Source of the DNA: Hydrolagus affinis
Taxonomy: Eukaryota
Direction of reading: 5' to 3'
Length of the DNA stretch: 64,000 bases
Assembly (NCBI GenBank): GCA_012026655.1
Contig: JAAILG010000462.1
Location: forward strand, 1 to 64,000
The notes beneath the pieces are model-generated. The model made no database searches. It saw nothing but the letters and a program-made list of their open reading frames with translations, and had not been told where the DNA came from. How positions within the stretch are numbered: the stretch's first letter is position 1; each line of letters opens with the position of its first letter. The position numbers were made by a program, and so were the translations under genes. Positions 659-28,100 of this stretch are shown piece after piece.

Positions 659-778
659 ACCTTGTTTACTGTGGACGGAAGCTGAAGGATGAGCAAACCT
701 TGGATTTTTACGGAATTCAGGGTGGATCCACGATACATGTGTTAAAGAAATCCTGGCCCGAACCTGATGAAAGGACCG
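659..778 (+). CDS. UBL7: UBL7 exon (ubiquitin-like domain, C-terminal half)
   Basis: tttttcag|ac...accg|gtatgg; DLVYCGRKLKDEQTLDFYGIQGGSTIHVLKKSWPEPDERT. Confidence 0.95.
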
Positions 779-3700
779 GTATGGAAAACTAAATCGCGGG
801 ATAAACTGAAAATGCTTGTGCATGGGAATGAAAGGAGGGAAGAGGGTCTCATTTCTGCTGACAGTTGAATCCTTTGATGCTGATTTTTGGATTACTGCGA
901 ATCTGGTTCTTTGCCAGGCAGATCTACTTAATGCTTTACAGTTCTCATTTGCACTTTTCCCTCCTCAACACCCCTCCAACTCCCTTCCTCCTTGTTAAAA
1001 AATGGCTGTTGCAGTCAGCAACATTGCTAATGGTGGGTCTTTATTTTGTAGTACAGTATTGAGAGGGAGCTTCGTTTCTCGTTTAATTCAGGAGAATTTT
1101 ATGTATTTCTTGTGCTGTAATTGACTTATTGTGTTTTATATGGGTGTGATGGGCAAATGTGTGCTTTTATCTACCTTGAAAAGTTGATATACAGACTTCA
1201 ACAAAACCTATGGCTTATTTGTTCAAGCTGGAAGTTTCATGCATTGTTGATATTTTACCCCTTTCCAGAGCCAGTGGACCGGGCTGCTGCAGCTCGGGAA
1301 TTCCGTGTGCTCCAGGCAGCCCTGCACGCCAGCCCAGGATACCGAGATGCAGTAAGTGTTTAATGCTTTCAGAGCCTTGAACCATTCTGTTCAGATCAAC
1401 CCGCCTACTCCAATCTGTATTGATTTACCCACCTTGACAACATTTCTTCAACGTTCTATAAGTTTCTTCACCAGCTTTACAGTAACCCTGTAAACTCTGC
1501 CTTACTCTTTGTGTAATGCCATATATACTATTGTTTATCAAAACTTATCCTTCACATCTCGTGTCCTGATGCTTCAGCATATCTTCAAGTATTGCTGCAA
1601 AGCTGAAAATATATTGTAGAGAAATCAAGCTATTTCAAATAGTACATGCAGGGTGTTGCAATGAATTCTATTAAACCAGGTTGTCTACTTTTACTGATTT
1701 AATTGTAGGTTTTCAAAATGCTGGGGAACAAGGAATCACTTGACCAGATTATTGTAGCTACGCCAGGTCTTTCCAGTGATCCCATCGCTTTGGGTGAGTT
1801 GTTTGGAAGTTGTTATTATTGGCACTGATGACAAATACTCCAAAAATACATTGTAGGTGTCCTTGTATTTTGCAATTCCCAATGTATTGGGCACGATGGA
1901 TTTAAGTGGCTGTAATTTCACTGACCCTGATATATATGACAACGTAGGCCAAGTCTCAGTCAATTCCTGGGAGCGCTACTTTGTCAGAGATGGTATCCCT
2001 TACGTCACTTCTACTTCAACCAGTCAGGCATTCTTTGTTAATGTCGGCAAGCGATTCAACTGTGTGGTGCATCACCACCAAGTCAGATCCTGCCCTGATC
2101 AGGCAGCTCTCTACTCACTGGATATGATCAGGAAGAGGAAACCTGACTGACTTTGACTTTTGCTTTGCTAAACTTGGAAGCACATATTGTGGTTCACTTT
2201 TACCTTCCTTTCATTATAGCCCTGATTGAGATGAACGAACACAGCACAAGCAAAAATCCTTTGAAGTAATAATAATAATCCTTGCATTTGACGTAATGCT
2301 TTTCACGTCTTCTAGATGTCTCGATGTACTTCACAGAACATGCTGTAAAGTGAATTGACTGTATATTTGTGGGTGAAACGCGGCAGCGTGGATTTAAATG
2401 GATTGAAATGACCAATTTTATTATTGTTTTTTTGAGGGATTATTGGCGTGTGGAGTAACCTTGCCCAAGGTTTCGCGCTGACCTGCATGGATTTAAACAC
2501 AGGTCTCATGCTTGTAAGGCGAGTGCTCTAACCATTGAGCTAAAGGACTCCAGGCATGTCACATTTGGTGACATTTAAAGCTCGCCACTTCAGTGTCGAT
2601 GGAGAAATCAAATGTGATATTGTCCAGATTATTTTCTTAGAATATTTTTATTCTCTTTGAACCAGGCGTACTTCAAGACAAAGATTTATTTGTTCTCTTC
2701 ACTGACCCAAGCCTGTTGGATACGTAAGTGCTGACCTCATCTTGCTTCAGCCCAGTTTAGTTACATCAATGATCATGTCTAATTCTCTTGCTGCATGTTT
2801 TTGCTTGTTATGGGTGATAAAATCACATCAACAGTGTTGTTGGGTATATTGAAGTCCTGTTTTACATTGAACAGAGGAGGTCTGCAGGCAGTTGCTTTGC
2901 GTGTACATACATCCTGCACTCCCTTGCCTGATAGATTGAGATCACTTTCCTTGCTATTGAATTCAGGGCTTTTATACTAGTAGGTCCCTATGAGGAGACT
3001 GAGTGACCAGCATCAGGAGAGATGTGTCAGTGTAAGTGGGGTGGGAGGTTCTCCTGGAAATAAACTTGATGATAGTAATAACAATCCTTGTATTTGATAT
3101 AGTGCCTTATTATGTCTTCGAGGCATCTCAAAGTACTTCACAGGATACACTATAAAGTGTAGTGACTGTGTATTTTGTAGGTGAAACGTGGCAGCTAATT
3201 GTGCACAGCAGAGACCCACAAACACCGATGTTCCTCCATCTATGCATCAGGTCACTGATAATTGGTTGAACCATTATCTAATATATATATATATAATATA
3301 TACTGTAGTTATACTGGATTTGTGTCTCTCCACAGTTTGATTTCCTCACACCCTGCACTGGTCAACGCGATGGTGTTAGTCTTACACTCTGTGACTGGAA
3401 CTGCACCACCTCTGTCTACTGCCAGTAACTCTCGTAATCTACCATCCAGCTCCTACAATGATATACCGGGTAAGGGGCGAGTCTGGGCTGTCAGCAACAG
3501 CTACACAATCAGGGAAATAAAGCTATAAACATAGTTGTATGATTTATCAGCTTTCCATCCATTTTGCAGACCTCAACCATGTACTCTGTATTGTTATCAG
3601 TCTTGTTTAACAATACAGCAGGATTATTTTAACGTTCACAATTTGATCACATTTCAGGTGGATTTCTCTTTGAGGGTCTCTCTGATGATGAAGAGGAGTT

Positions 3701-6233
3701 TCAGCAGGTAACGTTGGCTTTAATGAGACTGTGCAGCTGTTATTTTGCTGTAGGCTGCTTTCAGTCTTTACCCAATACTTAGAGTTGCAAAGGAAATTAC
3801 CTTCTCAAATCAAGGTCTTACTCTTATCCTAAAATTGCGATATAGACTTATAAAATATTAAAATACAATGAACTGTCTGTATTTCTATTTGTGATATTGA
3901 GATATTTGTCCCATTGGTCTCTGTCTTTCCTGTTGCTTGATTTTGTGTATCACATCAGTTTGTAAAGTTCACAGCAGTGATTGATGTGAGTAGTGTTTCT
4001 TTCCTCCACTTCTCTCCTCCCTTCCTGTAATGTCATTGTCTGGAAGGCTGAGGAGATGTTTGTTTGTATATTACACCACAAGGATTCCTGTAGCTCAGTG
4101 GTTAGAGCACCCGCCTTACAAGTGAGAGACCTGGGTTCGATTCTAGGCAAGGCGAAACCTTGAGCAAGTTTCCTAACTGCTCATGCCTAATAATAATCCC
4201 TCAAGAAAAGAGGGAGAAAAGAAAACAGTAATAAATTGGTCATTTCAATCCACAATTGTCAATTCACTTTACAGTATATTCTGTGAAGTGCTTTTGAGAC
4301 ATCTGGAAGACACGAAAAGCACTATATCAAATGGAAGGATTATTATTTATTCAGGGAAATAAAACTGCAGACTTCCTCATCCATTTGCTTTTGTAATGTC
4401 ACAGTATCTTATCTCTGGGTGAGAATTACTGCTTCCAAGTGCACTCTGAAAGGAGTGATCCTTCTCTTGTTATTTTATGTGGAGAGTACGTGCAGTCAGA
4501 GCACTCTCACAAAATACACCCAACACTTGGCTTTTAATAAAATATTCTTTATTTATTCAAACCCATTTAATTCAATATATAATCCTGCATTGGTAGCAAT
4601 CAACACAAAAATAAGTATAATTCTTATATAATAATTTGATCAGTATATTATAAACTTTTAACAAGGCATAATATCCCATCAGTCACAAGATGTCAAACCA
4701 CTAAGCCTCAACCTTTGGACCACCAGAGCCAAACAAAAAGTAACTGTACCCCAAATTCACATCTCTAAATTCATGAGGTTCAGAGGTTTTATAATTAGTG
4801 ATATTGAAGTTAAATGTTAGTTAAAACTCCCAAACTCGACAATTGTCCTATAACTGTCCTATATCCATTTTATACCTCAAATGTGCCCATTTTTTACCCA
4901 ATCAGTTCTCCGTACTTTGACCAACTCAACTCCGAATTGACTAAGAATGACCACCTTCAATTAATCCTTCCTACTTTGATAGTTCGAAAACCATAAACCC
5001 ATTAACTCAACTATGGTTCAGGCTAAAACACTATAACAGGACCATGAAACCCATTAATAATCCTTGCATTTTCATTGATATATATTAACTCATCAAATCT
5101 AACAAAAAACTCATAAACAAAGCACTTAACCAACCTTAAGAGAGATAAACAAATTGATATCTCAATCTGACAAATTCAACAGACTTATCTGGCTCTGAAC
5201 ACCTGTAACTGTTCTACATGAACCCAGATATTCACCTTATTTCGATTAACTCTTAACTACCTCATAGTACTTTGGGGGATAAACTTTGGCTGCTTTTATT
5301 CTATATAAGTTTGCTCCCTCTGAAGGCGCCGTTTGTTATTGTCACTATTGTGTACCTGAAACAACCTTTTGGTTGGCTTTACAGAACACAAGGTACGGCC
5401 CTTCCTCCGGCAACCCATCTGGCTCCCGTCCTGCCACCTTGGGCTACAGCGGCTCTGTTGGGCCTCGACCCATTACGCAAAGCGAGCTGGCTACCGCCCT
5501 GGCACTGGCCAGTACTCCTGAGAGCAGTGCTGCTACACCAACCCCTGGAACACAGGTACTGACACAGCTACTCAATGCCAATCGTGAGCTGCCCTACTTC
5601 TAAGTTATTAACTGCTGTGTCGTAAATTGTCTTGCCTGGCTCACTTTACAGGGTACGTCGTCCAGCTTGTCACCTGTACTGGGCTCCGGAATGCCCTCAG
5701 CCACTCCAATCAGTCATGACATCTTCAGCCAGGCTCTCCAACAGGCTCTCCAAGCATCCAGTATCTCAGCACTTCAGGTCAGTGCCTCAGCAACCAGTGA
5801 CCACAAGGTTCTCAGGAGTTTATATCCTCTGTTATTACCACCCTGCATGTGTGTAAAGGCTTTGTTTGCAAACATTCCTTTTATATTCATTAATAATCTT
5901 TTTACCCAAAAGGTTTATTAATTTTTTTTAAATTTCCTAATTGACTCAATGTTTACAGTAATGTTTTCTACATCTTTGTGCGGAAAACTTTCCTTCTAAT
6001 CTAGTACTAATCTTGGGAGTTTATGAAGCCTTTTTTGGGGGAGGTGATAGCGTATGCCTGCGGAGGAGACATTGTCTATGGCTCATCTCTTTCAGAATCA
6101 GTGGCAGCCGCAGCTTCAGCAACTGAGGGATATGGGCATCCAGGATGACGAGCTGAGCCTGAGGGCATTGCAGGCGACCGGAGGCGATATCCAGGCTGCG
6201 CTGGAGCTCATATTTGCTGGTGGAGCACAGTAA
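659..6233 (+). CDS. UBL7: Ubiquitin-like protein 7 (UBL-UBA protein), 5'-partial; nine coding exons, first coding exon lies upstream of the window
   Basis: Exons 659-778, 1269-1351, 1709-1793, 2666-2723, 3336-3469, 3658-3707, 5385-5555, 5652-5777, 6096-6233 have AG/GT ends and matching phases. Translation DLVYCGRKLKDEQTLDFYGIQ...QWQPQLQQLRDMGIQDDELSLRALQATGGDIQAALELIFAGGAQ* matches vertebrate UBL7 as recalled. Confidence 0.96.
1269..1351 (+). CDS. UBL7: UBL7 exon
   Basis: ttccag|ag...gca|gtaagt; EPVDRAAAAREFRVLQAALHASPGYRDA. Confidence 0.95.
1709..1793 (+). CDS. UBL7: UBL7 exon
   Basis: ttgtag|gtt...tgg|gtgagt; VFKMLGNKESLDQIIVATPGLSSDPIAL. Confidence 0.95.
2267..2551 (-). mobile_element. 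tRNA-derived SINE (DeuSINE/SacSINE1-related family), near full length
   Basis: Reverse complement of head ggagtcc..tagctca..ggttagagcactcgcc and tail tgtgaag..atcaaatgcaaggattattatt. Confidence 0.88.
2666..2723 (+). CDS. UBL7: UBL7 exon
   Basis: accag|gc...tac|gtaagt; GVLQDKDLFVLFTDPSLLDT. Confidence 0.94.
3074..3224 (-). mobile_element. SINE 3' half, same family
   Basis: Tail and tgtttgtggg..ctgctgtgcacaatt core. Confidence 0.8.
3336..3469 (+). CDS. UBL7: UBL7 exon
   Basis: cacag|t...ccgg|gtaagg; LISSHPALVNAMVLVLHSVTGTAPP...SSSYNDIP. Confidence 0.94.
3658..3707 (+). CDS. UBL7: UBL7 exon
   Basis: tttcag|gt...cag|gtaacg; GGFLFEGLSDDEEEFQQ. Confidence 0.93.
4082..4350 (+). mobile_element. 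tRNA-derived SINE with internal deletion
   Basis: Pol III A box TAGCTCAGTGG, B box GGTTCGATTC, family tail. Confidence 0.88.
5385..5555 (+). CDS. UBL7: UBL7 exon
   Basis: ttacag|aac...cag|gtactg; NTRYGPSSG...GPRPITQSELATALALASTPESSAATPTPGTQ. Confidence 0.94.
5652..5777 (+). CDS. UBL7: UBL7 exon
   Basis: ttacag|ggt...cag|gtcagt; GTSSSLSPVLGSGMPSATPISHDIFSQALQQALQASSISALQ. Confidence 0.93.
6096..6233 (+). CDS. UBL7: UBL7 terminal coding exon (UBA domain)
   Basis: tttcag|aat; NQWQPQLQQLRDMGIQDDELSLRALQATGGDIQAALELIFAGGAQ, TAA at 6231-6233. Confidence 0.95.
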   Translation, partial: NQWQPQLQQLRDMGIQDDELSLRALQATGGDIQAALELIFAGGAQ

Positions 6234-6944
6234 TCCTATCACACAAGGAAAAGCCTTCTTCAGCAAATGCTCACCCCACGGTTTCACATGATGCACAGTA
6301 GAGTGGTTTGATGTGGTGCTTTGTGCGAGCAATGTAATATGCTGTGTGCTTACCATAAGTATGATTCTTAAAAACAATTCAGCATTATAGGTAAATACCG
6401 TTTAATGGGCTTAGCAACAGGTAACAGACTTCCACCGACTTGGGTCCAGTGTATGAGCTGTTATAAACTGAGAAGATAGAGTTAACAGCCAACATCGTTA
6501 TATACAGCTCTGCAGAGGATCCTTGTAAATAGGGATATTTTAATATATTAAAACAAAACCGGTTCCTGAAATTCATCTGTGGATCAAGCACTTGACATTA
6601 GTATTTTGTGTTCTCCATTAAAATCTGCATGTGCCCAAGCAAATATTTAAACTACATGCCATTGATAGGAGGCAACAGTTTTTACTTAATATACAGTGTT
6701 ATGTTTATTAGAGACTTTAGGTGTTTCTGAAAATGTCAGTAAAAATTTAGCATAATTTACTATTAGTAAACTATTGAGTCGCTTGCCTGAGTAGCCAATG
6801 CTGTCATTAGAAAAAAAGGACGTCTTGAGCAGCCATCCACTGGCCGAGGTCAAGGAACCATGTGTCTGTTATTTCTATGAGGGTTAACAGCTGAAATCTT
6901 AAAATATTTGCCCGATTCTTTCAAGAACAATAGAAGTATTGTAC

Positions 6945-6950
6945 AATAAA
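6945..6950 (+). terminator. Probable UBL7 polyadenylation signal AATAAA
   Basis: First AATAAA I found downstream of the UBL7 stop; followed by T/GT-rich sequence. Confidence 0.55.
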
Positions 6951-7083
6951 GTTTTAAAAACTGGAATGTTGAACTCTATTTTGAGTTATGCAAACACTTT
7001 AAGAACAAATGACTTGTTCCCACTTTCTGAATATTGTACTTTGTGTGTAAATACAACATTTTTTGACATTCAAATTAGATATT

Positions 7084-7093
7084 TTTATTTATT
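7084..7093 (-). terminator. Probable CHRNA3 polyadenylation signals (overlapping AATAAA on minus strand)
   Basis: tttatttatt on plus strand, about 550 nt past the CHRNA3 stop. Confidence 0.5.
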
Positions 7094-7645
7094 AATTAAA
7101 ACGAACTCCACAACTCACAAAATCAGTAAACTCACAAAATCAGTAAATCAGACATAAAAGATTCTGAAGTCTTCCCTTTCAGCAAACGATTGCATTGCAG
7201 TACTAGAAAGATAAGGTAGACCCATGTATAATCCCAGGTCTTGCTATAAATATCTCAATCTAGTTCCCAGAGCGCAACAATGCATTATAATTCCCCCTGT
7301 CAGATCTACAGCATTTACAGCTGAACTAACCACTGTTTTGTTTTCCGTTGTAGCCCCGTCTCTCATCACCTTCCAACCGCAAGACATTACCTTCCTCATT
7401 CTCTCCCTTTTTGGATTGGCAGATAATTGCAATATATTGTTTACAACATATGTATGCATTCAACACGACCCAGCCACTGCAGAATGCTCCCAAGACATTA
7501 TCCTAAGTAAAGGGCACTATATAAATATATATAGAAGCACAATTTGTCACAGGTCTCTTAACCATTGAAACTACCTTTCCCCACCTACGTTAATTACTCC
7601 TGGTTATGTGTGTGCGCGCGTGGGGGGGAGGAACATGTGTTTATA

Positions 7646-7798
7646 TCAGTCTCCGCTGGTCCCAGGGATCACATTTTCAGCTCTTGTCATCAGTGGCTGC
7701 AGGAACAAACCTGCGGTGCCCAAAATACACACCAATATGAAGAGCCAGAGGAAAATCCTATCGATTACCATGGCAACGTACTTCCAATCATTCTCAAC
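7646..7798 (-). CDS. CHRNA3: CHRNA3 exon 6 (M4, stop)
   Basis: ttcag|[50 protein letters not shown]. Confidence 0.93.
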
Positions 7799-10700
7799 CT
7801 GAAACAAGCAGCATGATAGAAAGATTAGAGCAAGATCATTTTTAGTTTCAAGTCATTTTTAAAGTACCGTTTATACCAAATTATTTTACTGCTCTTTATT
7901 TACTCCTTTTACCAGACTGTGGAGTCCAGTAGCTCAGTGATTAGAGCACTCGCCTTGCAAGTGAGACACCTGGGTTTGATTCCTAGTAGGGTGAAACCTT
8001 GGGCAAAGTTTCCTTACTTCACACGCCTGATAATGATACCTCACCAAAAAGAAACAATAAAAATTGGTCACTTCAATCCACTGCTGTGCACAATTGGTTG
8101 CCACATTTTGCCCACAAATATATACAGTCAATTCACTTTACAGTATATTCTGTGAAGCGCTTTGGGACGTCGATAAGATGTGGAAAGCGCTATATCAAAT
8201 GCAAGGATTATTATTATAGTCAATTCACTTTATATTCTGTGAAGCCCTTTGAGACAACTAGAAGATGTGAAAAGCACTACATCAAATGCAAGGAGTATTA
8301 TTATACCCTGGAGGATTTAAAACGGCAACCCGCCACCAGACTTCTGTCTTGACATCTGCCCACCCCTTGCATTTGTTACAGCACCCCCATAACATCAAAT
8401 GTTTCAAGGTGCCTGATGTAGAATTGCATTACAGAACAGTTACTACACATTTATTGATACAGGCAGTGGTCAAATCGCAAATGGTAAATATCCCAAGAAC
8501 AGCCATGAAGTGAAGCATCAAAGTGACTTGGAGGATGCGTAGCTCAATCAGCAGTGAAAACTCCATTCTCAAATTGCGTCAAGGGATCTTAATGTCAAAC
8601 TGAACTGGAGGGTAGGATCTCGGTTAAGAATCTGACCCAAAGAGTTTGCCTCCAACAAGGGATGAGCTCAAATGTCCCAATGTCAGGCTTCACACCCACA
8701 ATCTTCTGACCATGGGGAATGAGTGCTACCAACTGAGTCACCAACGGCACCAACTCCATCTCACGATGCTAGTCAGGAACCTGGATGTCTTGTTTGACCC
8801 TGAACTCTTGCCCACATTCGTGCCATGACCAGCACTGCGTTCCACCACCTCGATAATATTGCCTGACTCTGCCACTACATCACTCCCTCAGGCTGCCGAA
8901 ACTCTCACCCTTGAATTTGTCACATCGAGGCTTGACTACAGAAACTCCCTCCTCGTCAACCTTCCCAGCTCTTCCCTTCACAAGCTGCAGATCATCCACA
9001 ACTCTGCAGCTCGTGTCCTCTCCCGCACCAGGCTCCACATCATTCCCACCCTTGCCCGGCTCTGTGAAACACTTTTGAGATGTTTCAACGATGTGATAAG
9101 CCGCTATATCAAATGCAAGGATTATTCTTATAATTTGCATTTTGCCTAAATATAGCCTAAATAGCCTAAATAACAAGGCAACAGTTTCCACCATCAAACC
9201 TAGATCTGAATGAAGCAAGTGATTCTGGCACCAGAGAGACAGATGGAGTTGGAATAGTAAGCTGACCAGTTGGTTTGCAGCCAAATTAAATTCCTCTTAA
9301 TACCTCACCCAATGGGGCTACTTTTTGGGAGGATATGCTAGAGCAAGATGTTGCTTCAAAATGTAAATTGCTTCAAAGAATTATACAACATTGCCTAAAC
9401 TTTTGAATACTAGAAAACCAATCATCCAAAATACAGTTTATGTTGCAAGTAAAGCAGATATGTCAGAAAATGTTAGAAGAAATTATCTATTTGACAAAGA
9501 ATTTATTTGAGACGTATCAGCAATAGAATAGAGTAGAATGAATCATTGAATGTCAAATTTGTGGAGTCCTGTAGTTCAGTGGTTAGAGCACTCGTCTTAC
9601 AAGCGAGAGACCTGGGTTCAATTCCAGACAGGTCAGGGTGAAACCTTAGCAAGTTTCCTTACTGCAAATGCCTGATAATAATACAGAAGCCTAAAAAAAA
9701 ATGGTCATTTGCAATCCTCGACCGTTTGTGGTGCACTGCTGTGCGCAATTGGCTGCCGCATCTCACCCACAAATATACAGTCAATTCAGTTTAATGTGCA
9801 TTCTGTGAAGCGCTTTGAGACGTCTAGAAGACGTGAAAGGCGCTGTATCAAATGCAAGGATTACAGTATTATTATTATCTTGAATAATAATAGTAATAAT
9901 AGTATCATCTGAAAGTTCACAATATTTATCCACCCACTAGAGGTCGCTTTAGCAAAGCATTTGAATTACTGGAACCAGAAAGCAACTACATTCCTAAGTA
10001 GGCAATGTAACACTGGGTGGGAAGTGACTAGCCTACAGGTGTACAACAACAACTTCGATTTATATAGGTATATCAGATACGGATCGTGGATATACTCGAT
10101 AGACAAATGTAGAAATGTGAAAACATGCAATACAAAGAATGGGATGCGACAGTAAAATAGAAGAAAGGTATATGACCTGTCAAATCTGTTAGTTTAATTA
10201 AGCTTTTACTCTTCACTGCCTGCATTAGCAGGAACAACACCGTTTTTTTTATTTAAGTTGAGTGTAAACTCGGCATGTCACTGAAGAACTCAGGGGGAGG
10301 AAGTTATAAGGAACCTTTTCACCCAGAGGGTTGTTGAAAGATTATTATTAGAATCTGGAACACTTTGCCACAAGGAAGTTTGACGAAAGGCAAGAAAAAA
10401 AATAGCAATTAATAAATATTTGAAGAGGATGAATATAAAAGGGTGGGAGGGAATTGGGATGAGAGTAAATAATTCCAGTGAGGTAGCAAACATCAGAATA
10501 CGTTTGATGGGCAGGATGTATACAAATCGAATCGCCTCTTTAATTATGGAAGCACTTGCCGTTGCACAATTCAAATAGATTACTGGGTTGAATTATTTGG
10601 AATCTGGTCTTTGAACGGTAAAAATCCATGAGGTCAATAACACGTTACTTTTTCTATTAGTCTAATGCATTACCTTGAACCGAGTTAACAGTGTACCAGC

Positions 10701-13700
10701 GGCTGTGGTGTTGCCTCCGCCTGGTCCTGAGCTAGAGTCACTTGATCAAATCACGATTGCACAAAACTTTAATGGGTTCACTCAGCATATGATAATAATG
10801 AGTGGAAGCGACAGAATGTGACGCCAGCTCTCCTCGAATTTCATAGTGGTTCCAAAGCATTTAGATAATGGAAACAATCTCAGCACAGTGAACATTGTGT
10901 GTGATTGCATAAGGTTTTTTTTGCTCACCCTTCATTCATTCTATTAGCAAACCTTCTCCTTGTTTGATTTCTTAACTTGCCAACAATGCAAAAAAAAAAG
11001 TAGTTTCCTCACCTCCTTGCATTGGTTGTGCCGCCTGATGTTCTCAGCCATGTACTTGACATTCTCGATGGTTTGCTGGATTTCTGGAAAGACCGAGATG
11101 ACGAGAAGTGCGTCCAAGAAATCTAGGCTGGAAGTGGAGGTCACACCGTCTCCCGCATCTGGGTTCCTCGCCAGGTGGCGCCTGTAATATCTGCACCGGG
11201 AATCCTGGCAAAGGGAACTGGCTTTGGTGCCCTTGGTTTCTGAGCTGGAGCTGAGGCTGTTGAGGTCCGAGAGTTCTGTGCTATCAGAGTGTCTGATCTG
11301 TTGAGGTTCCCCAGGCTCCTTGGTGGGTCTGGGTCTGACCATGAACATTACTCTCGGCAGCAAATCTATGAAGACTGTCCTTACCCAGGATGGCATGGTG
11401 TGGGTCTTGGGTGTCCTATAATGCACGTTGAGCACAAAGACGGTGATAACAATAGATAGGGTTATAAAGATCATAGTGAACAGAAGGTACTCGCCAATGA
11501 GAGGGATGACCAGTGAGGTGGAAGGTATAGTTTCCGTGATAACAAGAAGAAAGACAGTGAGAGACAGTAAGACCGAGATGCAAATAGTTACCTTCTCCCC
11601 GCTATCAGACGGGAGGTAAAAAACCAATACTGTCAGAAAGGAGATCAACATGCAAGGGACGATCATATTGACGGTGTAGAACAATGGCAACCGCCTGATG
11701 TAGAGCGAGTAGGTAATGTCCACGTAGATTTCTTCACAGCAGTTGTACTTAATGTCGTGCTTGAATCCCGAAGCGTCCATGATGGCCCATTCTCCGTTTT
11801 CCCACAGGTTATCCAGGTTAATGGTGGATCCGATCAGGGCGAGGTCGATTTTTGCTTTGTCATAGGTCCAGGAGCCGAATTTAATGCTGCAATTCTGATA
11901 GTCAAATGGGAAATAGGTGACGTCCATCCTGCAGGAGCTTTTGAATATGGCGGGAGGCGTCCAGGTCACTGTGCCGTTAAACTCGAGCAGAGCTCTGGTC
12001 TTGTCTCCCACCTGGAAATCACCAACTGCACTGGAAACACAACCCAAAGCAGACATCAACAGCAGAGACTCGGCATGTGGGCGGCTCAGCCATCAACCCG
12101 ACTGAGGAACAGTTACTCCCAACGCGGTCTCTCCCACTCGCCACCCACCCTCTCCGTGACATCTCAGCCTCCAAAATCACACCTATCCTCCTCGCCCTCT
12201 CCCACAATGCGACCTCTCACTTTCCTTCTGATATTGCTTTCCACCGGTAAAGGATGACGTCCCCTCCGGGCAGCCCCCACAACCCGCTTGGGTAGATATG
12301 TACCAACCAAGTATCTCCTCTCTTATCGCCTCTGACTTGTACACACCGCGACTCAACTGTGCATCGAGGCGCTTGCATCTCTTTAATTACCGTATATTCA
12401 TCATATTAAACTTCGATACTTCTTGCTACGAAATCCTAAACATATAAGAAAACAAAACATTGTGCAGAAACCACAGTTTTGTTCAACTCCGCGGCCCCCA
12501 GGGACGAAAATCAAATCAAATCGAAAGACGGGAGTATTTGTTTTGTGTTATGTAAACTGGTGCAGAATCAATCTGATTAAATGCGCCACATCCACTGAAA
12601 AATATATCGATTTTTATTTGAATTAATGCCGCCATAAATTTCACAATGTTTCAACCGCACTCTGCAAGAATTTCCTCGGCCCGTTTCCTGCAGCGTGTAA
12701 TAGATACACCGAGCAGCTAAACACACACACGATTCACCGCGAAGCGCTCTAACATGACGGAACCTTGCTGGACCCACTTAAATTACCGAAGAATAACTAA
12801 CTCATCCTCAAGTAGATACAGAACAGACTCCAAAACACCACATCATAATCCCCTTTAATAGTCACCCCCTCTCCCCCCCCATATCATTTATCTTTGCCCG
12901 GATTATACATCTCTAACTTGTACTGAGACCGTTTAACCGAATAATGGTGACATTCACATCTGGGTGAAATTCGACTTTTCCGACCTTATCAGTTTGTGGT
13001 TTTAATGAGATCAGAAATCGTGATTTCCCTCATGATACACAACCGTTAAGGACAGTGCCCTCTGACCCCCTCTTCCAATGTCCCCGGGGACTCCCGGCTC
13101 CTCGGAATCGATGTCCAATATTAGCTGCGCATTTGGACTTTCTATCACTCACTTGTTGTACAAGACGATGTCTGGTTTCCAGATGTTTCCAGAGGGCACC
13201 CTAATGAACTTGACGCCTCCGAATTCAGCCGGATCCCATCGCAGTTTGTAATCATTCCAGATCTGAGAGAAACGCGGAGATTGAAAAGGTGAAATTGTGC
13301 CGAGGCCTCCGCGAAACCCCAGAGCCAACAACACAAACCGCCAATCATCGATTCTCTCTCATCAGCGGTTTTTTCCCCCCTAAAAAAACACATGTGAATC
13401 AGACAGTGTATTACAGTAGCCTGTTTATATTGGGCGGTAACCTCATTGTGAAGGTGTGATCCGGAAATATTGGATGTACAGTATTAACTTGGCTTGTTCG
13501 ATTCAATCCACGGTCAACCAGTGGCGGCTGAGTTTTGATACTCCTGAACAAAGTCATCTATGGCCTTCAAACAGGTTCCCCGTCAGGTAAAGGTTAAGAT
13601 CTGCAACAACAACATGCAACCCTATAGGGGAGCATTCCCACAATGGGCACAGACACTGATTGGTTATATATTAATCCCAGTTTAAAAACATGAATCAATT

Positions 13701-15520
13701 TTCTACAGCCTCTCTCTGAACACAACGCAACACGGGTATTCACTGCAAATAGAGTATCACTCAACCTGGGTAACGAATTACACTGCCGACCTGTCCCTCG
13801 AGTTTACACTTATGAAATATGAAAGGATTTGCTACATTTTCATTCAGGCCAGACACTGTTTTCCCAGAACAATTAAGAGGATTTTGCAAATCGTCTTTGC
13901 ATATTTTTCGTGCCTTTTCTGGCGCATTGCTTTTGCATATTGCATTTCTGTCTTATTTTAATATAGTTTTCACGACGGGCATTTCAGTCGGTTGAGTCTC
14001 CCTCTCCCGATTACTGGAGCAAACAGTTCTGCAAACTGCCCTCTCCCCTCCTGCTGGTATTTAGGACGTGGCCTCCTCACTGGATGTTGGCTCCTTCAAA
14101 TGGACTAATCCCTGCTCACTTTTCTAATGATTGAAACTCACGTGTTTTAGCCACAGGTTGGTTTCCAAGAACTGATTGACTTCATCCTGGAAATCGAAGG
14201 AGCGAGAAGACAGTCAGTGCAGCACAGACAGAGAGTGGAGTGGGGACAGTACAGTGAGTAAAGGCGGATTGTGATAAAAAAAACTACTTTACCACTTTAA
14301 CCAGCTGAGACATGGACACCTCAAAATAAATGGTGATCGGGTCAGACACATTCTCCACCGGCCGGGTATACCGACTGTAGTTCTCGAAGAGTTTTGTGAA
14401 TAGTCTTTGCTCGGCCTCTGATGCCACAGCCCCTTTTTTTGGAAAGGAGAAAGCACACAACAAAGTGAATTCCCAAGCCATTGGGCTACAATGTTAAGCA
14501 ATTGCATTCATGTGCGGTAAACCTGTGTGCGACGAAAAAATCTGAACAAAAAAAATGAAGGCAATGATTCTGCAGGTCAGAAATTTACTAATGCCCCCGC
14601 AATGTTCTCAACGCCAGGCTGAGCTGTTAGCTGGTTAGACTCCAGAGGTTACTCCCAACGCACACTCTGGCCTCCCCAAGCCTTGGCTCTTGCCAACCTG
14701 CGCCTGTTACTTGCTGAACGAGGTAAGCAGGGAGAGAGTGTGAGTTCCATTCTATCAATCTATCAGCGCCTTGGGACGTCCCCCCGACGTGAAAGACGCT
14801 CTATAAATGTAATGTTGTCTGTAATAGGTGGGATGCCTGGAATTCTCAGCTGGATTTGGACGATGGGTTTCCGCACCTGTCAGTCACCTGGCTGATCAAA
14901 AATGTAAAGCAATTGGTGGTTAAATCCCAATTATACCCTCACTGCACATTCTGCCTCCCTCCTCCCCCCAATCCACACCCGCTAGAAACCCAAGGATTAT
15001 TACTATTATTTGTCTGGTGTAGAGTGTGAACTCTCTCAGAGGGAAACTCATATTTCTACTATATTTGATATATATATATATATTTCTATGTGATATTGCT
15101 TATCACATCTTCATCTTCAATGTCTCTTCCCAACACGAAAGGCGCTGTCTAACTAAATGTAAATTGTATTTTATCTAGAATGCCACTTGAGGAAAGTGAG
15201 ATCCGAGGAATACGTTGTCTGGCATATAAAAAAAACAAATAGTACAGCAAGATAGAGAGTTACGTCATATTGTTGGGTTGAATAATAACACAGGGTAAAA
15301 ATACAACTCAAATAGCAATGTATTCTAGGGTTAGGTTTGTACCTGATGGGATTTGAAGCAAACATACATAAGATGTGGATGTGTCTGAGGAATGGAGACG
15401 AGATCTGGCTGCTGTACTGTGCTGTACAACACACAGTGCTTTACTATAAAGTTTCTCACCTCCGATAAGCAACAAGAAAAGAGTAGAGGACAGAAGCAGA
15501 GGCTGGGATATGTTGTTCAT
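7646..15520 (-). CDS. CHRNA3: Neuronal nicotinic acetylcholine receptor alpha-3 subunit, 6 exons, 508 aa
   Basis: Exons 15460-15520, 14293-14432, 14142-14186, 13153-13262, 11013-12030, 7646-7798 total 1527 nt in frame, with the canonical 140/45/110-nt nAChR exons. Cys-loop [15 protein letters not shown], loop C YNCCEEIY with vicinal cysteines, four TM helices, an alpha3-type cytoplasmic loop (ELSDLN..CQD) and linkage to beta4. Confidence 0.9.
7921..8303 (+). mobile_element. tRNA-derived SINE with tandemly duplicated 3' tail
   Basis: Head at 7921; segment agtcaattcacttta..atcaaatgcaagga occurs twice (8126-8217, 8218-8303). Confidence 0.88.
8690..9131 (+). mobile_element. L2-clade LINE ORF2 3' fragment joined to a SINE-type tail
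   Basis: [46 protein letters not shown] is a typical L2 ORF2 C-terminus. Confidence 0.82.
9563..9879 (+). mobile_element. tRNA-derived SINE, full length
   Basis: Head, core and (TTA)n tail. Confidence 0.9.
10285..10520 (+). mobile_element. Decayed CR1 LINE 3' fragment
   Basis: aggaaccttttcacccagagggttg...tggaac resembles the CR1 RNFFTQRVV region. Confidence 0.6.
11013..12030 (-). CDS. CHRNA3: CHRNA3 exon 5 (Cys-loop, loops B and C, M1-M3, cytoplasmic loop)
   Basis: Within ORF 10944-12059; acceptor ttccag at 12031, donor gag|gtgagg at 11012. Confidence 0.95.
13153..13262 (-). CDS. CHRNA3: CHRNA3 exon 4
   Basis: 110 nt; [36 protein letters not shown]. Confidence 0.95.
14142..14186 (-). CDS. 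CHRNA3: CHRNA3 exon 3
   Basis: 45 nt; [15 protein letters not shown]; ccag|...|gtgagt. Confidence 0.94.
14293..14432 (-). CDS. CHRNA3: CHRNA3 exon 2
   Basis: 140 nt; [46 protein letters not shown]. Confidence 0.93.
15460..15520 (-). CDS. CHRNA3: CHRNA3 exon 1 coding part (signal peptide)
   Basis: [20 protein letters not shown] hydrophobic leader; phase-1 donor gag|gtgaga compatible with exon 2. Confidence 0.8.
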
Positions 15521-21852: not shown

Positions 21853-22051
21853 AGCATAAGTCGATTATTAAGGCAAATTTATGTGTATGGTATATCTTAT
21901 ATAGTGGCTCTTGATATAGAGAAAGCGCTTTAAAGACTCTGAGAAACCATGCAGCAACCAGTTCGTGTTTCTTGTGCAGCAAAATGCTGTGTAAAAAGTT
22001 CCTCAACAAATGAAAGGCTGTGAAAGTTCTTGTTGCCAAGGCTGAGACATG

Positions 22052-22183
22052 TCAAGGGTAGGGGTGATTGTAAATGATTGGCTGCAGAAACAGTCCAATT
22101 GTCCCTACGATGCAAACGACCACAAAGATCCAGAGAAACAAGCGATCCACTACCATGGCTACGTACTTCCAATCTTCAGTTAC
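22052..22183 (-). CDS. CHRNB4: CHRNB4 exon 6
   Basis: [43 protein letters not shown]. Confidence 0.94.
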
Positions 22184-25100
22184 CTGAAAAACAAGATCAC
22201 AGTGTATTTTTAATGAAAAGCAGGATTCAGTATCAAACGTGCCCATTCATATGGAATTGTGAAGCTCAACCAGTAGTATGTGTGTGTGTGTGTGTGTGTT
22301 AGTGCTAGACTCCTCCGCTAGCCCCGCTGGTGTTAGTTTCTGTCAGCCCAATTATCAACCACAAATAGCCATGAAATAAAGTAACTTCCTTGGGGTTTGA
22401 CATCCGTGATACTATAGGTGCAGAGCACCAGACCTGAAACAACGGGTGATCTGAGCAGTTTGTCTAGCAAAGATTTGTCTAGCAACACTGGGCACATCTG
22501 CATTGATTCAAAGACATCTTTGATGCCGTCGGGCTCATTAGTAAGACCTGGCGTGTAGGTAAGGCATGGACTTTCTAAAAATCAGCCTTAAAAGAGACAC
22601 CTACAAGTGCATCTACAGGTAACAAGTGTGTGTGGGAGAGAGAAAGAGAGAGAGAGGCAGGTAACATATGAATTACTGAAAATAAACACCATCTGGAATC
22701 GTAGGTGAGAGAGATCACTGTGTCCAAGCCCACGCCATGTCGTTATTATGAACTGATGAACTCTCACTTACGCTTTCATTTTCATCCTCGTTCTTCATGT
22801 TGTCTGCTATGAATTTCACACTATCGATTGCCTGCTGCACCTCCAGTGAATGTTTCTTTGAGGTCCTCAGCCTCACGTCTCGGTGAGAGCCAAACCCGTC
22901 GGGCGAATCTAGAACGCTCAGGTCGCAGTTTCTGGTGGAAGTTGGGTTGATAAAGAGAGTGGCTGCATTGTATCTGTCTTCCGGGCTCACAGCCACACTG
23001 GAGTGGTTGGCTTTTTCACGCTGGCGCAACCTTTGCTCCAATGAACTTTTCTGGGGTCTCTTGATGAATAAGAGGGCGGGCAACTTCTCCAGGAATACGG
23101 TCTTCACCCACGGTGGCATATCGTGAGTACTGGGAGATCGATGATGAACGTTTAGCACACCAACACTGGTGACAATGGAAAATGTCACCAGGACCATAGT
23201 AAACATGAGATATTTGCCTATCAGGGGAACATCCAAAGAGGTAGGAGGGACGATCTTAGAGATCAGCAGCAGGAACACGGTCAGGGCGAGCAGGACAGAA
23301 ATACACAGAGTAATCTTCTCACCACAGTCAGATGGGAGGTAAAAGACTAGAACAGCCAATGATGTGATGAGCATGCAGGGGATCAGGAGGTTGATGGTGT
23401 AGAAGAGAGGTTTTCTATTAATGATAAAGTCGTACGTCACATCCACGTACGTTGCATCCAATGGATTCACGTTCCTTCGTCCTAGAAGTGAGATGATGTC
23501 CCACTCACCACTAGGAGTGAAATCGTCGATGCTTGCTGCCTCAGTCTTCAGCACCAGGTCAATTTCTGTGTGGTCATAAGTCCACGATCTAAACTTTAAA
23601 GTGCAGTTCTGCTGGTCAAACGGGAAGTGCTTGACCTCGATCTTGCAGGCGCTTTTGTAGATGGCCGGGGGCAGCCAGTAAATGCTCCCATTGTAGGTGA
23701 TGATGACATTGGTGTACACAGAGACCTCGTACGTCCCGTCTGCACTAGAGAGAGAAGGGGTCGTCATCAAAGAGAGAATTAAAAAGGAGCGACAGAAACG
23801 CAAAGGAAGAAGGAATGCATGCAAGTGACGGGAAGGAACATGTATGAGTGAGTTAAACCACGTAAACAGCTTGCGACCCTTACACAGGGGAGTGTCCCAG
23901 AGCGCTTGGCAATATGTATCAGAGGCGGAGCAGGACGCCAAACCAGGGAGAGGTTACTATAGGTATAGTTGAGGAGGAAGGTCTTCTGGCAAAACCCAAG
24001 GATGGGGAAGGAAAAGGCAAGGTGGAAGGAGAGAGGGAGAGTGTTCCAGAGTTTCGGGGCATACTGGATTGGATGCGATACGTATTTTATGTCCACTTAA
24101 GGATTTAGAAAGAGAGGTTATGCATCAATACAAAAATAAAGCAAACTAAAAGCCACTTCTCTGATGGTTTAGTGAGTTAGTGCAGTGAGTGAGTGTCTGC
24201 GCCATAGACACCAGAAAGCTCTGGCTTTTAATTCTGATTTGCGCCGAGTTCATTGAGTGGAGGCCGCAATTTGGAATAGAGTTGACAATATGCAGTAATA
24301 AATCAACTGGGATTGATTTCCTTCTGAAATTTATCAGCCTTAATATACATGTGCAAAACGTACTCGAGATTTCGGGGTATGTAGAAGTTTTTGCGAATGG
24401 GTGTCACTGAGTCTAATTTGTGCTATTACGCAATGAGGAATCCATTGCCCACCCCCCCGCGTAGGAACTCCGCTAACATTGAGTAAATAACTTTGGAGTG
24501 GAGTTATTATAATAATAAGAATGTTTGCGTTTGATTTGGTACCTTATGGCATTGATAATAATCCTTGCATTTGATCTCCACATTGTTGAGATGTCTCAAA
24601 GCGCTTCCCAGGATATACTGTAAACTGAATTGACTGTATATTTATGTTTGAAGAAATTTACCCGAATTGGACCCCTTGTGTTTTCAAAGCAAGAGTGAGT
24701 TTAGTTCTGAATTTGGGAATGGCAGTTGCTTTGAGGGTGGAGAATCTACATTATTTGGCATTTTTAATAAAGTAAAATATTGTACTGTACAATAAAACTC
24801 GCATCAATTTGATATGTATAATGGCCTAAATTGTACATTGGCCTAAATTACGGGAGTTTGACAGAACACATACTTTGCATGAGTCATATTAAATGTATGG
24901 AACCGAATAATATGACTTGTGCAAGGTTTACTACATAAGAGAAAGAGAGAGAGAGAGAGATTGTCAAATGGATATGGCCATCAAACTTACTTGTTATAAA
25001 GCACAATGTCAGGGAGCCAAATGAGTTTGGAATATACCCTAACTTTGCAAATTCCGTCATAGTCAGCTGGGTCCCAGGACAGCCGGTAATCGAACCATTC

Positions 25101-28100
25101 CTGGCATAAGATAGATACAAAGTAGAGACTATCCATTTTCAACATCCAGAGCAGACAATCTCAGGTGTTTTCCAAATTCTCAAACGCGGTAAGAGTCATG
25201 GAAATACTGACCTGCTTTAGCCAGATATTTGTTGTCATGATTTGTTCGCGCTCATTCTAAGAAAAGAACATGAACAGTTAAGAATGTGTGGGAGGAGAGA
25301 ACTCACTTGAAGCCTAATTTATTCTTTCCAAGATATCATTTAGTTATGGATACCATGAAGGGTGCAAGTTTTTTTTTTTTTGCTTTTCCAGGTCATAAAG
25401 TCTTGATTCCAAGGAAGCACCAAATGGTGCTTGGTATTTTAGCTAATGAAACCCATTCCTATCAAAGAAAGTATCAACCATACCATGGATGTATCTGACC
25501 AATTTCACCTTCAGGAGATCTTCACTGATTCTCAAAGGTTACTCGAAATATTCAACAACAACAAAATTCCATTTGCATAGTGCCTTTCACATCAGGGGGA
25601 AGTCCTAAATGCGCCAGTGTTTTGGACTCATCTACCTAATCCAAGATCACTATATAACACAAGTGTAATTGTTCCGCATTTCATCCACCCTCATTTCATT
25701 TCAATGTCCTTCAGATCTCGCACAACATATCTCTTACATATCCATTGAATGACATTTCATGGATAAATGCATCACTATATGCTAACAATAATTTGTGCTT
25801 CTGTCCCTTTTGGTACACCTTTTATCCATTCTTGTGTCCTGCATTATTTTCAAGTTTGATTCCTCCTATTGTTTATCTGGTGTTTTACTGAGTGTCCTCA
25901 ACGAATGAGAGGCATGTCTGGTTTGTAGGGGCAGAATACTCACCACACTGATGAGTTGTGCCAGTGAGACCTGAATCACTATTTTGACAACTTCTGAGCT
26001 ATTGGTGGCTGGTCGAATTAACCTATTGTATCTCTCTTCGCTTAGGAGATACTTCATGAGTTTTTCCTCGGTCTCTGCCCCACAGCCACCTGTAAAACAG
26101 GAAACCTACTTCAGACCAGAAAATTTGCTGTTAGTAGCATTTTTGCCCTGGGCAGGGCTTGATCTCACAGCATCTCGACTGACACTCCATTGTTGTAAGT
26201 ACCATCCTTTGGATTAGTTGCTAAAATTAAAACTCATTGTGAAATAGTTTCTTCCAGAGTCGAGGTCAACATCCCACCTGATTAATTGACGGTTGTTTTG
26301 TTGGACCTTATTGATACAAACAACTGCTCCTTTGCTGAGAAATATTATCAATATACTGGACAATAATTACTTGTGAAACTATTTCATGTAATAAGACACT
26401 ATAGCAGTGGAATATGTATTTATTTTGGCCTCTGACCCCCCAGAAGGAAAAATACTAGAAGCATCGTAGACCATCTCCTTGTCAGGCTGCTCACTAAACC
26501 AAATCCCTGAGAGAGAGATTGTGTGAGATTGTGTGAGATGGAGGGAGGAGCCACATCCATCACTTTTGAGGTGAAGAAAATAGTAAAACAGCCAGGAATC
26601 CTTTTGTGAACCCCACCCCCCCACAAACCCCCCTTCCAACCCCCTCCCCCCCCAGATTAAAATAGAAAATAATGAGTGTTAATGTATCCTATGCGTTTCA
26701 TACTAATGCTATGCGCAATTGGTGCCATGTTTTGCCCACAAAACATTACATTATAGAGCAGCTTTCACATCGAGAGGACGTCCCGACATGAAACACTAAC
26801 TGTAAAACTTCACTAAAGTCACTATTGTAAATGACTTTGGAAATGGTTGATTTGGTTCCCCATCGATTTTAATATATACAAACACAAAATACAGATGTCC
26901 TATGTTTACACGTGCTGGATTTTCTCAAATAAAAAGATCTATTTTAGAAGTCATCTCGGATGCAATCAATAAATAACACAGAGGCTGCAAAGTGACTGAG
27001 TCCTGCTATAGGTAATCGATTGTTTAGATACAATATCACATCTCTGGGGAGCCTATCAATCATTTGAAATCATTTGAATCGTTTAAAGTAATGCAAACAT
27101 TGGTATTTTTACACCCAAATCCCTATGTTGCTTGAGTCAGAATATGATACAATTCACCTTTGTTTTGGGACTATTTCACTTCCTACATTCCAATCCCTGT
27201 TGCCTGGTAGTGTTGAGAAGGTAGCGGTCGTTTCTACCCGGTCTCCTTTTAATACAAAATTTGTACAATTGTAAAAGTGTAATCGTTTGTTGGATTAACA
27301 AGGAGTGGATGAATGGGCGATGATATCTCTCTCTGGTCTAAAGTGTACTGAGGTCCTGAGTAATTTGTGACTCATCTAAAGACAGACATTTCATTGTATT
27401 TCTCCCTATCTGCCTGTGTACCTTGGAGTCAATCAACACAGTAGCCCCTTGGCTTCTAGTCTTACAATATCCCTTAAACCTGAAGGCAATGTGCAAGTTA
27501 TTTGGTTATTATTTTCCTTAAATACCTTCCCCCTCCCACCACCACTGTTCAGAGTTTAACCAGCAAGCAGCCGACATAATATACAGACATAATAAGTCTC
27601 GGGGGGCAGTGAGTTAGATTCTAACTACAAATCCGTTTGTTACCCTTTACTTTAGTGTGAGCGGGGTTAGTCTGTGAGCATGGCATTGGATCCGAATGAA
27701 ATGGAGTAGTTGGTATATTGAGGATTGAAATATCAGAGCAAGTCAGTTTCATTTTGGACTCCTCTAATCTGCCTCTAATTGTCTGTGTGTGTTTAGAAAC
27801 AGCCCCCAGACCGTTTTGAAATGAAGATGGTAAGGAATTATAAAGTCTTTCCTTTCTAAACTCGTGTTTTCTGTGTTGTTGCAAATCGCATCCCCTACTT
27901 TTTCCCCCTGGTCTTGTTTCTCTCTCTTTAGGCTTCGCCGCACGACCGATCAGAGAGTCGTGGAGGGGTGGGCGGTGGAGAGAGATAGAGAGAAAGAGAA
28001 AGAGAGAGAATCTCAATGAAATAATGTCGAGCAGCGTCCAGAGAGAAGTCTCCTGTTTGTTAAATAAACCCCATCGCAAGCCTTTGGGTGCCAGAGATTT

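What the first reader, a model, noticed from the sequence alone, without database searches (positions are those of the whole stretch)
6233..7646. CHRNA5 is missing from its canonical position; UBL7 sits tail-to-tail with CHRNA3
Established: in mammals and birds the cluster is CHRNA5>< CHRNA3 < CHRNB4, with alpha5 convergent on the alpha3 3' end. Seen: the convergent gene here is UBL7, with only 1.4 kb of gap-free DNA between the two stop codons, and I see no alpha5-like exon anywhere in the 64 kb. Inference: either the three-gene cluster was broken or alpha5 lost in this lineage, or the alpha3-beta4 pair is the older unit, or this is a second paralogous alpha3/beta4 locus.
Basis: partly seen in the sequence, partly recalled or inferred. 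Interest (0 to 1): 0.7.

Follow-up and report, generated by a model that had tools for sequence, protein, structure and literature searches.

The report
Chimaera nicotine-receptor cluster split, alpha5 dead
In this chimaera-like fish the alpha5 nicotinic receptor gene is not beside its usual neighbours alpha3 and beta4 but lies elsewhere as a broken gene, so a cluster kept together in bony vertebrates was likely split early in cartilaginous fishes and alpha5 was likely lost later in one chimaera group.

Summary
Observation confirmed. UBL7 (+) and CHRNA3 (-) end 1,412 bases apart, and the 99-kb contig has no alpha5 exon. The junction is real: one contig of a related organism spans it, and contigs of two others tile it.

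CHRNA5 is not deleted. It lies on other contigs, is sister to Callorhinchus alpha5 (100/99), and is a pseudogene. Exon 5 has a premature TGA, a 1-base frameshift and a 6-base deletion. Stop and frameshift are shared with two related organisms, which add private deletions. Exon-5 differences look neutral (15 N: 5 S).

In Callorhinchus, UBL7, CHRNA3 and an open-frame CHRNA5 share one 10.7-Mb scaffold, and UBL7 and CHRNA3 have consecutive ids. Whale-shark accessions are near-consecutive too. Bony vertebrates keep alpha5 next to alpha3.

Best reading: an old intrachromosomal rearrangement in cartilaginous fishes split the cluster (inferred, indirect evidence), and alpha5 died much later in one chimaera clade. 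No elasmobranch alpha5 was among 120 listed hits. I found no earlier scan finding or paper on this.

The parts
659..6233 (+). UBL7, 9 coding exons (659-778, 1269-1351, 1709-1793, 2666-2723, 3336-3469, 3658-3707, 5385-5555, 5652-5777, 6096-6233); first coding exon on contig C71119
   Evidence: open spliced frame; match to Callorhinchus UBL7; ubiquitin and UBA domains; last two introns seen spliced in RNA of organism B
6234..6975 (+). UBL7 3' UTR, AATAAA at 6945-6950 (end place approximate)
   Evidence: RNA depth of organism B falls from 14.6 (bin 6863-6951) to 2.7 (6952-7040) to 0; signal
6951..7083 (.). 133-base interval between the two facing poly(A) signals, where CHRNA5 would be expected; a candidate zone for the old breakpoint (inferred)
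   Evidence: spanned by a single contig of organism A; no alpha5 remnant
7084..7645 (-). likely CHRNA3 3' UTR, AATAAA at 7084-7089
   Evidence: signal only; no CHRNA3 reads in the one RNA run laid
7646..14432 (-). CHRNA3 exons 2-6 (14293-14432, 14142-14186, 13153-13262, 11013-12030, 7646-7798), intact, with the loop-C cysteine pair
   Evidence: 85% identical to Callorhinchus alpha3; tree
15460..15520 (-). candidate CHRNA3 exon 1 (signal peptide)
   Evidence: only ATG..GT candidate of the right phase; weak match to a Callorhinchus model nearby, not confirmed
22050..28210 (-). CHRNB4 (exon 1 about 28168-28210; 25944-26089, 25212-25256, 24991-25100, 22772-23744, 22050-22183), exons 2-6 open
   Evidence: Pfam; named beta4 by its place beside CHRNA3 and its beta2/beta4-type sequence, not by a named beta4 reference in a tree

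Best explanation
CHRNA3 and CHRNB4 stand intact and tail-to-tail with UBL7, while CHRNA5 lies on other contigs as a broken gene; likely an old rearrangement within one chromosome, probably before chimaeras and sharks parted, cut the cluster between alpha5 and alpha3, and alpha5 likely became a pseudogene much later in one chimaera clade. Shown here: the junction, where alpha5's exons lie, its lesions, and their sharing with relatives. Inferred: an inversion-type event, its age, and that alpha5 lived on for a long time outside the cluster (open frame in Callorhinchus). Inferred from established pharmacology: these animals would assemble alpha3beta4 and alpha4/alpha2-beta2 receptors without alpha5, which is an accessory subunit that forms no agonist site. 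The broken gene could at most give a fragment that ends before the first membrane helix and so could not join a channel. That loss of the shared cluster regulation helped make alpha5 dispensable is a hypothesis only.
For: Junction: (A single contig; B and D tile). Alpha5 exons 2-5 on C26841, exon 6 on C86326/C89628. Orthology: best alpha5 hits are Callorhinchus alpha5 at 82% (rank 1 by E-value is a 619-aa catfish beta3a record at 66%); sister to it at 100/99, and the genome's beta3 is another contig, C4731. Lesions in L018: 6-base deletion near 7289, TGA 7493-7495, 1-base deletion near 7739 giving TAA; organism A (one contig over the whole exon, depth 30) shows no difference at any of the three places and adds an 11-base deletion; organism B covers the stop and the frameshift without difference and adds a 3-base deletion; organism C (depth 2) covers the 6-base deletion without a gap. 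One copy of exon 5 in the genome. Relaxation: 15 N: 5 S against 77% N expected under neutrality, omega about 0.9, p 0.002 against omega 0.2; branch 0.18 vs 0.064 for Callorhinchus alpha5, while alpha3 is 0.12 vs 0.12; changes at conserved columns 20 vs 8, alpha3 9 vs 13, Fisher p 0.044. Age and same chromosome: Callorhinchus UBL7, CHRNA3 and CHRNA5 all on a record of 10,676,269 bases; EukProt ids P002539/P002540 consecutive; whale-shark UBL7 XP_048472949/50 and CHRNA3 XP_048472952/55 on one 23.9-Mb record. Polarity: bowfin alpha5/alpha3 XP_066557743/744, gar XP_015198885-7/894; medaka and fugu likewise, and CHRNA6/CHRNB3 neighbours in all. Alpha5 accessory, knockout mice viable (PMC3712017 passages).
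Against: Gene order outside this genome and runs A, B, D rests on id numbers and record lengths, not on coordinates. RefSeq numbers run in interleaved series (Callorhinchus CHRNA8/CHRNA6 are consecutive although CHRNB3 lies between them), so the whale-shark numbers show closeness, not strict adjacency. In Heptranchias and Heterodontus the two genes share a chromosome but are 272 and 340 numbers apart. That neither supports nor refutes adjacency, and would speak against a shark-wide arrangement if numbering there is positional. Alpha5's own neighbours were not found: walks from its contigs ended in repeats, so 'inversion' is not shown. The neutrality test has only 20 sites. Its internal control is unclean: the listed A-vs-G000 differences in CHRNA3 exon 6 were 4 N: 1 S (UBL7 1 N: 3 S), from 40 of 251 rows shown. 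The assembly is in 245,464 contigs, so a second, intact alpha5 in a gap cannot be excluded. Organism B has double depth over 7540-7737, which may mean a partial second copy there. Alpha5 exon 1 was not found. The open frame of Callorhinchus alpha5 is an annotation and lacks its N-terminus. The orientation column of the PMC6354393 table lists alpha5 on the same strand as alpha3 in gar and coelacanth, so the ancestral orientation is unsure.
Confidence: 0.72

Rival explanations
1. The split and the pseudogene are real, but the split is confined to chimaeras (holocephalans); sharks and rays keep another order.
For: DNA-level evidence covers only organisms within about 10% divergence. Heptranchias and Heterodontus accessions are far apart.
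Against: Whale-shark UBL7 and CHRNA3 accessions are 2-6 apart on one record; all four sharks with both genes listed have them on one record. No elasmobranch alpha5 among the 120 best of 509 hits.
Confidence: 0.15
2. The alpha3-beta4 pair beside UBL7 is the ancestral state of jawed vertebrates; alpha5 joined it only in bony vertebrates.
For: With two sister lineages alone (cartilaginous and bony fishes) polarity is undecided; no lamprey data were seen.
Against: The ohnologous pair CHRNA6/CHRNB3 is neighbouring in bony vertebrates and in Callorhinchus (6.20 and 6.15 Mb). PMC6354393 (discussion) derives the three ancestors from local duplications before the genome doublings. So alpha3/6 beside alpha5/beta3 predates the split.
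Confidence: 0.05
3. The broken alpha5 is a dead duplicate, and a working CHRNA5 is hidden in an assembly gap.
For: Fragmented assembly. Two exon-6 contigs that differ at 9 of 1,405 bases and in their upstream 270-350 bases. Double depth over part of exon 5 in organism B.
Against: Only one exon 5 in three protein searches and one DNA search. The longest listed contig pieces of four other runs, laid at 80% likeness, showed no intact version of the lesion sites (154 shorter pieces not shown). The two exon-6 contigs converge on one downstream contig, as allelic bubbles do.
Confidence: 0.06
4. Assembly artefact: a misjoin at 6-8 kb and consensus errors in alpha5.
For: Short-read-type, fragmented assembly.
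Against: An independent contig spans the junction. The lesions recur in independent organisms and studies.
Confidence: 0.02

Closest known systems
CHRNA5-CHRNA3-CHRNB4 cluster of bony vertebrates (human 15q25; zebrafish chr18; PMC6354393, PMC11650009)
   Same: CHRNB4 and CHRNA3 in tandem on one strand, six-exon plan with a large exon 5, orthologous genes.
   Different: The convergent neighbour of CHRNA3 is UBL7; CHRNA5 is off the contig and broken.
Callorhinchus milii CHRNA5 (XP_042199081.1; XP_007883469.1 in PMC6354393)
   Same: Sister sequence, 87% identical over 370 aligned residues; both lack the loop-C cysteine pair; apparently the same UBL7-CHRNA3 neighbourhood.
   Different: Annotated with an open frame from exon 2 to the end, whereas this copy has a stop, a frameshift and an in-frame deletion.
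Unitary pseudogenes and lineage-specific nAChR losses (CHRNA8, CHRNA11 and CHRNB5 lost in mammals, PMC6354393)
   Same: Loss of one subunit gene in a lineage, with intact orthologues elsewhere.
   Different: Here the loss is young enough to read, is shared by a clade, and follows detachment from a cluster.

Membership tests
canonical CHRNA5-A3-B4 cluster | CHRNB4 directly upstream of CHRNA3, same strand | tested here: met
canonical CHRNA5-A3-B4 cluster | the alpha gene is the CHRNA3 orthologue, not CHRNA6 or a paralogue | tested here: met
   sister to Callorhinchus alpha3 100/100; top hits alpha3
canonical CHRNA5-A3-B4 cluster | CHRNA5 next to the 3' end of CHRNA3 | tested here: not met
   UBL7 there; no alpha5 exon in 99 kb; junction confirmed
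canonical CHRNA5-A3-B4 cluster | CHRNA5 on the same chromosome | tested here: inconclusive
   no scaffold information in G000; same 10.68-Mb record in Callorhinchus
CHRNA5 orthologues | groups with alpha5, distinct from the genome's beta3 | tested here: met
   (alpha5 as a whole forms an unresolved fork beside the beta3 clade; C4731 is beta3 at 97/97)
unitary (non-processed) pseudogene | disabling lesions in the coding frame | tested here: met
   TGA, 1-base deletion, 6-base deletion in exon 5
unitary (non-processed) pseudogene | lesions are not assembly errors | tested here: met
   shared with organisms A, B (stop, frameshift) and A, C (6-base deletion)
unitary (non-processed) pseudogene | introns kept | tested here: met
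   exons 2-5 with AG/GT sites on C26841
unitary (non-processed) pseudogene | no working copy elsewhere in the genome | tested here: met
   limited by a fragmented assembly
unitary (non-processed) pseudogene | relaxed selection | tested here: met
   small numbers, one unclean control
unitary (non-processed) pseudogene | no functional transcript or protein | not tested
   no RNA run was laid on the alpha5 contig

The most novel reading that the evidence does not exclude
Cartilaginous fishes are repeated natural alpha5 knockouts: one rearrangement in their common ancestor tore CHRNA5 away from the alpha3-beta4 regulatory neighbourhood, after which sharks and rays lost the gene outright and one chimaera clade lost it again independently and recently, leaving Callorhinchus as a last carrier. 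This would be a natural experiment on why the human nicotine-dependence cluster has stayed together.
Probability: 0.35. Interest if true: 0.68.

Novelty: new variant of a known kind. Interest (0 to 1): 0.5.

Why it matters
The CHRNA5-A3-B4 cluster is described as evolutionarily conserved, possibly for co-regulation, and is a main human risk locus for nicotine dependence (PMC11650009 passages). A vertebrate lineage that split it shows the linkage is dispensable for alpha3beta4. Comparing Callorhinchus (detached, open alpha5) with chimaeras that carry the dead gene makes two questions testable: does alpha5 expression depend on the cluster, and what do ganglia and the habenulo-interpeduncular pathway do without alpha5? 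It also corrects the subunit inventory for chimaeras. The kinds of event (cluster break, unitary pseudogene) are ordinary; the locus is what gives it interest.

Tried and rejected
Walking the assembly from alpha5 to find its neighbours: exon-6 contigs -> C147074 -> C43998/C105502 by exact 171-base end overlaps, then repeats; the 5' end of C26841 is a young SINE. Looking for the usual upstream neighbours (PSMA4, HYKK; recalled) by Pfam family: the contigs I opened were a proteasome beta subunit and an ACAD10/11-like gene by my reading, so no link was made. The semaphorin search (to test an alpha5-SEMA7A join; SEMA7A as UBL7's 3' neighbour is recalled) gave 60 exon hits that I did not sort. The search of 50%-identity representatives for shark alpha5 never ran. 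No RNA holder was listed for the junction. The one RNA run laid had no CHRNA3 reads, which says nothing about alpha3 or alpha5 in nerve tissue. Run X1 left most of exon 5 uncovered. Six unnamed fragments among the alpha5 hits fell with birds, mammals or beta3, none with the chimaera clade (quick tree). Literature: 10 searches listed no paper on UBL7-CHRNA3 adjacency or a chimaera or shark CHRNA5 pseudogene; subscription papers are mostly not covered; Xu, Scott and Deneris 2006 was not held. Three look-ups of earlier scan findings gave nothing relevant.
Full report
1. The observation. The window is the first 64,000 bases of contig C462 (99,013 bases) in a 1.11-Gb assembly of 245,464 contigs. 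Its proteins are closest to Callorhinchus milii (UBL7 exon 95%, CHRNA3 exon 5 86%), so the animal is inferred to be a chimaera. UBL7 ends at 6233 on +, CHRNA3 at 7646 on -, 1,412 bases apart with no N. CHRNB4 follows upstream of CHRNA3 on the same strand. All three have open spliced frames over the exons modelled. Fourteen alpha5 proteins searched against the whole contig hit only alpha3 and beta4 exons and one chance place.

2. The junction is real. I laid 4 of 19 listed runs on 5350-8000. Organism A (1.8% diverged) has a single 3,439-base contig covering 5350-7944, from UBL7 exons through the last CHRNA3 exon. Organism B (1.9%) tiles 6096-7818 with three overlapping contigs. Organism D (10%) covers it in six records with small holes, one record running from 6955 to 7524. 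RNA reads of organism B confirm the last two UBL7 introns and end near the AATAAA at 6945; a facing signal at 7084 leaves about 130 bases between the two likely transcript ends. That run had no CHRNA3 reads.

3. Where alpha5 is. A search of the genome with CHRNA3 exon 5 gave 17 matches. One, on the 9,677-base contig C26841 (L018), had stops inside. It carries exons 2-5 of an alpha5-type gene with normal splice sites. Exon 6 lies on two small contigs, C86326 and C89628, 99% alike and converging on one downstream contig, as alleles would. The first open part of exon 5 is 82% identical to Callorhinchus alpha5; most of the 120 listed hits are named alpha5, and the top E-value row is a 66% catfish beta3a record. 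In a maximum-likelihood tree of 19 rows it is sister to Callorhinchus alpha5 (100/99), and the genome's beta3 is a different contig, C4731 (97/97). Exon 1 was not found.

4. Alpha5 is a pseudogene. Against Callorhinchus alpha5, exon 5 has a 6-base in-frame deletion before the Cys-loop (about 7289), a TGA at 7493-7495 before the first membrane helix, and a 1-base deletion near 7739 that shifts the frame into a TAA. Laying four runs on L018:7100-8250: organism A covers the whole stretch in one contig at depth 30, differs at none of the three places and adds an 11-base deletion at 7751. Organism B covers 7341-8250, matches the stop and the frameshift and adds a 3-base deletion at 7700. Organism C (depth 2) covers the 6-base deletion without a gap. 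X1 covers little. The 20 distinct exon-5 substitutions to A and B are 15 non-synonymous and 5 synonymous, as neutrality predicts (77% N; p 0.002 against omega 0.2), and exon 5 diverges from A at 1.6%, like the junction region as a whole (1.8%). Its branch is 0.18 against 0.064 for Callorhinchus alpha5, whereas alpha3 gives 0.12 and 0.12. At columns invariant in four bony-vertebrate alpha5s it has 20 private changes to Callorhinchus's 8 of 283; alpha3 has 9 to 13 of 340 (Fisher p 0.044). Against this: the listed CHRNA3 exon-6 differences to A were 4 N: 1 S (UBL7 1 N: 3 S), from a table cut to 40 of 251 rows, so the control is not clean, and organism B shows double depth over 7540-7737. A DNA search finds one exon 5 in the genome. 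The excess of changes equals about 2% neutral divergence per site, about twice the G000-A split per lineage: a recent loss (rough inference).

5. How old is the split? Evidence here is indirect. In Callorhinchus, UBL7, CHRNA3 and CHRNA5 are all recorded on a contig of 10,676,269 bases, so the break was likely within one chromosome. UBL7 and CHRNA3 have consecutive EukProt ids (P002539, P002540) although their RefSeq numbers are 1,548 apart. In the older assembly used by Pedersen et al., CHRNA5 sat on a separate small scaffold (PMC6354393 supplement 2). In whale shark, UBL7 is XP_048472949/50 and CHRNA3 XP_048472952/55 on one record. In Heptranchias, Heterodontus and Stegostoma both share a record, but the numbers are 272 apart, 340 apart, or from different releases, which decides nothing. 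RefSeq numbers come in interleaved series, so none of this replaces coordinates. In bony vertebrates alpha5 and alpha3 are neighbours (bowfin consecutive, gar close; medaka, fugu, tetrapods), with UBL7 on the same chromosome in coelacanth and paddlefish. The ohnologous pair CHRNA6/CHRNB3 is neighbouring in Callorhinchus too, so the three-gene linkage is the older state and this arrangement is derived. No shark or ray alpha5 is among the 120 best of 509 hits, a list that already reaches teleost beta3 at 68-70%, while shark alpha3 and UBL7 do appear in the equivalent lists. This hints at loss in elasmobranchs but is not a test of genomes.

6. Mechanism. Shown: junction, intact alpha3 and beta4, detached and broken alpha5, lesions shared by a clade. 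Inferred: an intrachromosomal rearrangement, most simply an inversion with one break between the 3' ends of alpha5 and alpha3, early in cartilaginous fishes; long survival of alpha5 outside the cluster; later loss. Alpha5 is an accessory subunit that forms no agonist site, and knockout mice are viable (PMC3712017, passages), so loss is tolerable. Any product here would end before the membrane domain. Whether detachment from shared regulatory elements caused the relaxation is untested; the long delay argues against an immediate effect.

7. Known and new. Papers seen: PMC6354393 (abstract, passages, first parts of sections 7 and 9, supplement 2 parts 1-2; its .doc supplement could not be read and two PDF supplements were not opened; they may hold synteny detail). 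It lists ghostshark CHRNA5 as present and, in its main text, has no occurrence of 'UBL7' or 'pseudogene'. PMC11650009 (passages) calls the cluster evolutionarily conserved and has no occurrence of 'shark'. PMC3712017 (passages). Ten searches found no report of this arrangement or pseudogene. The scan's earlier findings held nothing on it. Verdict: a real, apparently unreported variant of a well-known cluster, made of ordinary kinds of event at a locus of high biomedical profile; interest 0.5.

Noticed in passing
L020:2630-3191 (contig C462 about 76.6-77.2 kb, + strand): First exon of an SH2-adapter gene (SHF/SHE-like; atlas scores 0.76, a lead only) about 48 kb upstream of CHRNB4. I recognised no gene between 28.3 and 76 kb but did not test this with references. 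UBE2Q2, recalled as the upstream neighbour of CHRNB4 in mouse, was not searched for.
   Followed up: partly
L003 (C38399) and L006 (C1872): Open-frame exon 5 of an alpha2/alpha4-type gene and of a beta2/beta5-type gene (my reading). PMC6354393 did not find CHRNA2, CHRNA4 or CHRNB2 in ghostshark, so C38399 may fill a gap in the chimaera inventory.
   Followed up: no
PMC6354393 supplement 2: CHRNA6 and CHRNB3 are listed on the same strand in fishes and ghostshark but convergent in human, mouse, opossum, chicken and lizard; CHRNA5 and CHRNA3 are listed on the same strand in gar and coelacanth. If right, the tail-to-tail layout is not ancestral; the table also has doubtful strand entries.
   Followed up: no
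window 7646-14432: Both alpha3 (stem 0.22) and alpha5 (stem 0.28) have long holocephalan stem branches; CHRNA3 exon 6 differs from organism A by 4 amino-acid-changing of 5 listed substitutions.
   Followed up: partly
L026/L027 (C86326, C89628): The two alpha5 exon-6 contigs differ in their upstream 270-350 bases (possible insertion polymorphism), and one has Trp to Ser in the last membrane helix.
   Followed up: partly
L018:7540-7737 in run X7: Depth about twice that of the flanking contigs in organism B, with a 3-base deletion: possibly a partial duplicate of the pseudogene.
   Followed up: no
window 28213-64000: 36 kb of AT-rich, CpG-poor DNA upstream of CHRNB4 with no recognised exon; a candidate region for the conserved enhancers of the alpha3/beta4 pair.
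   Followed up: no
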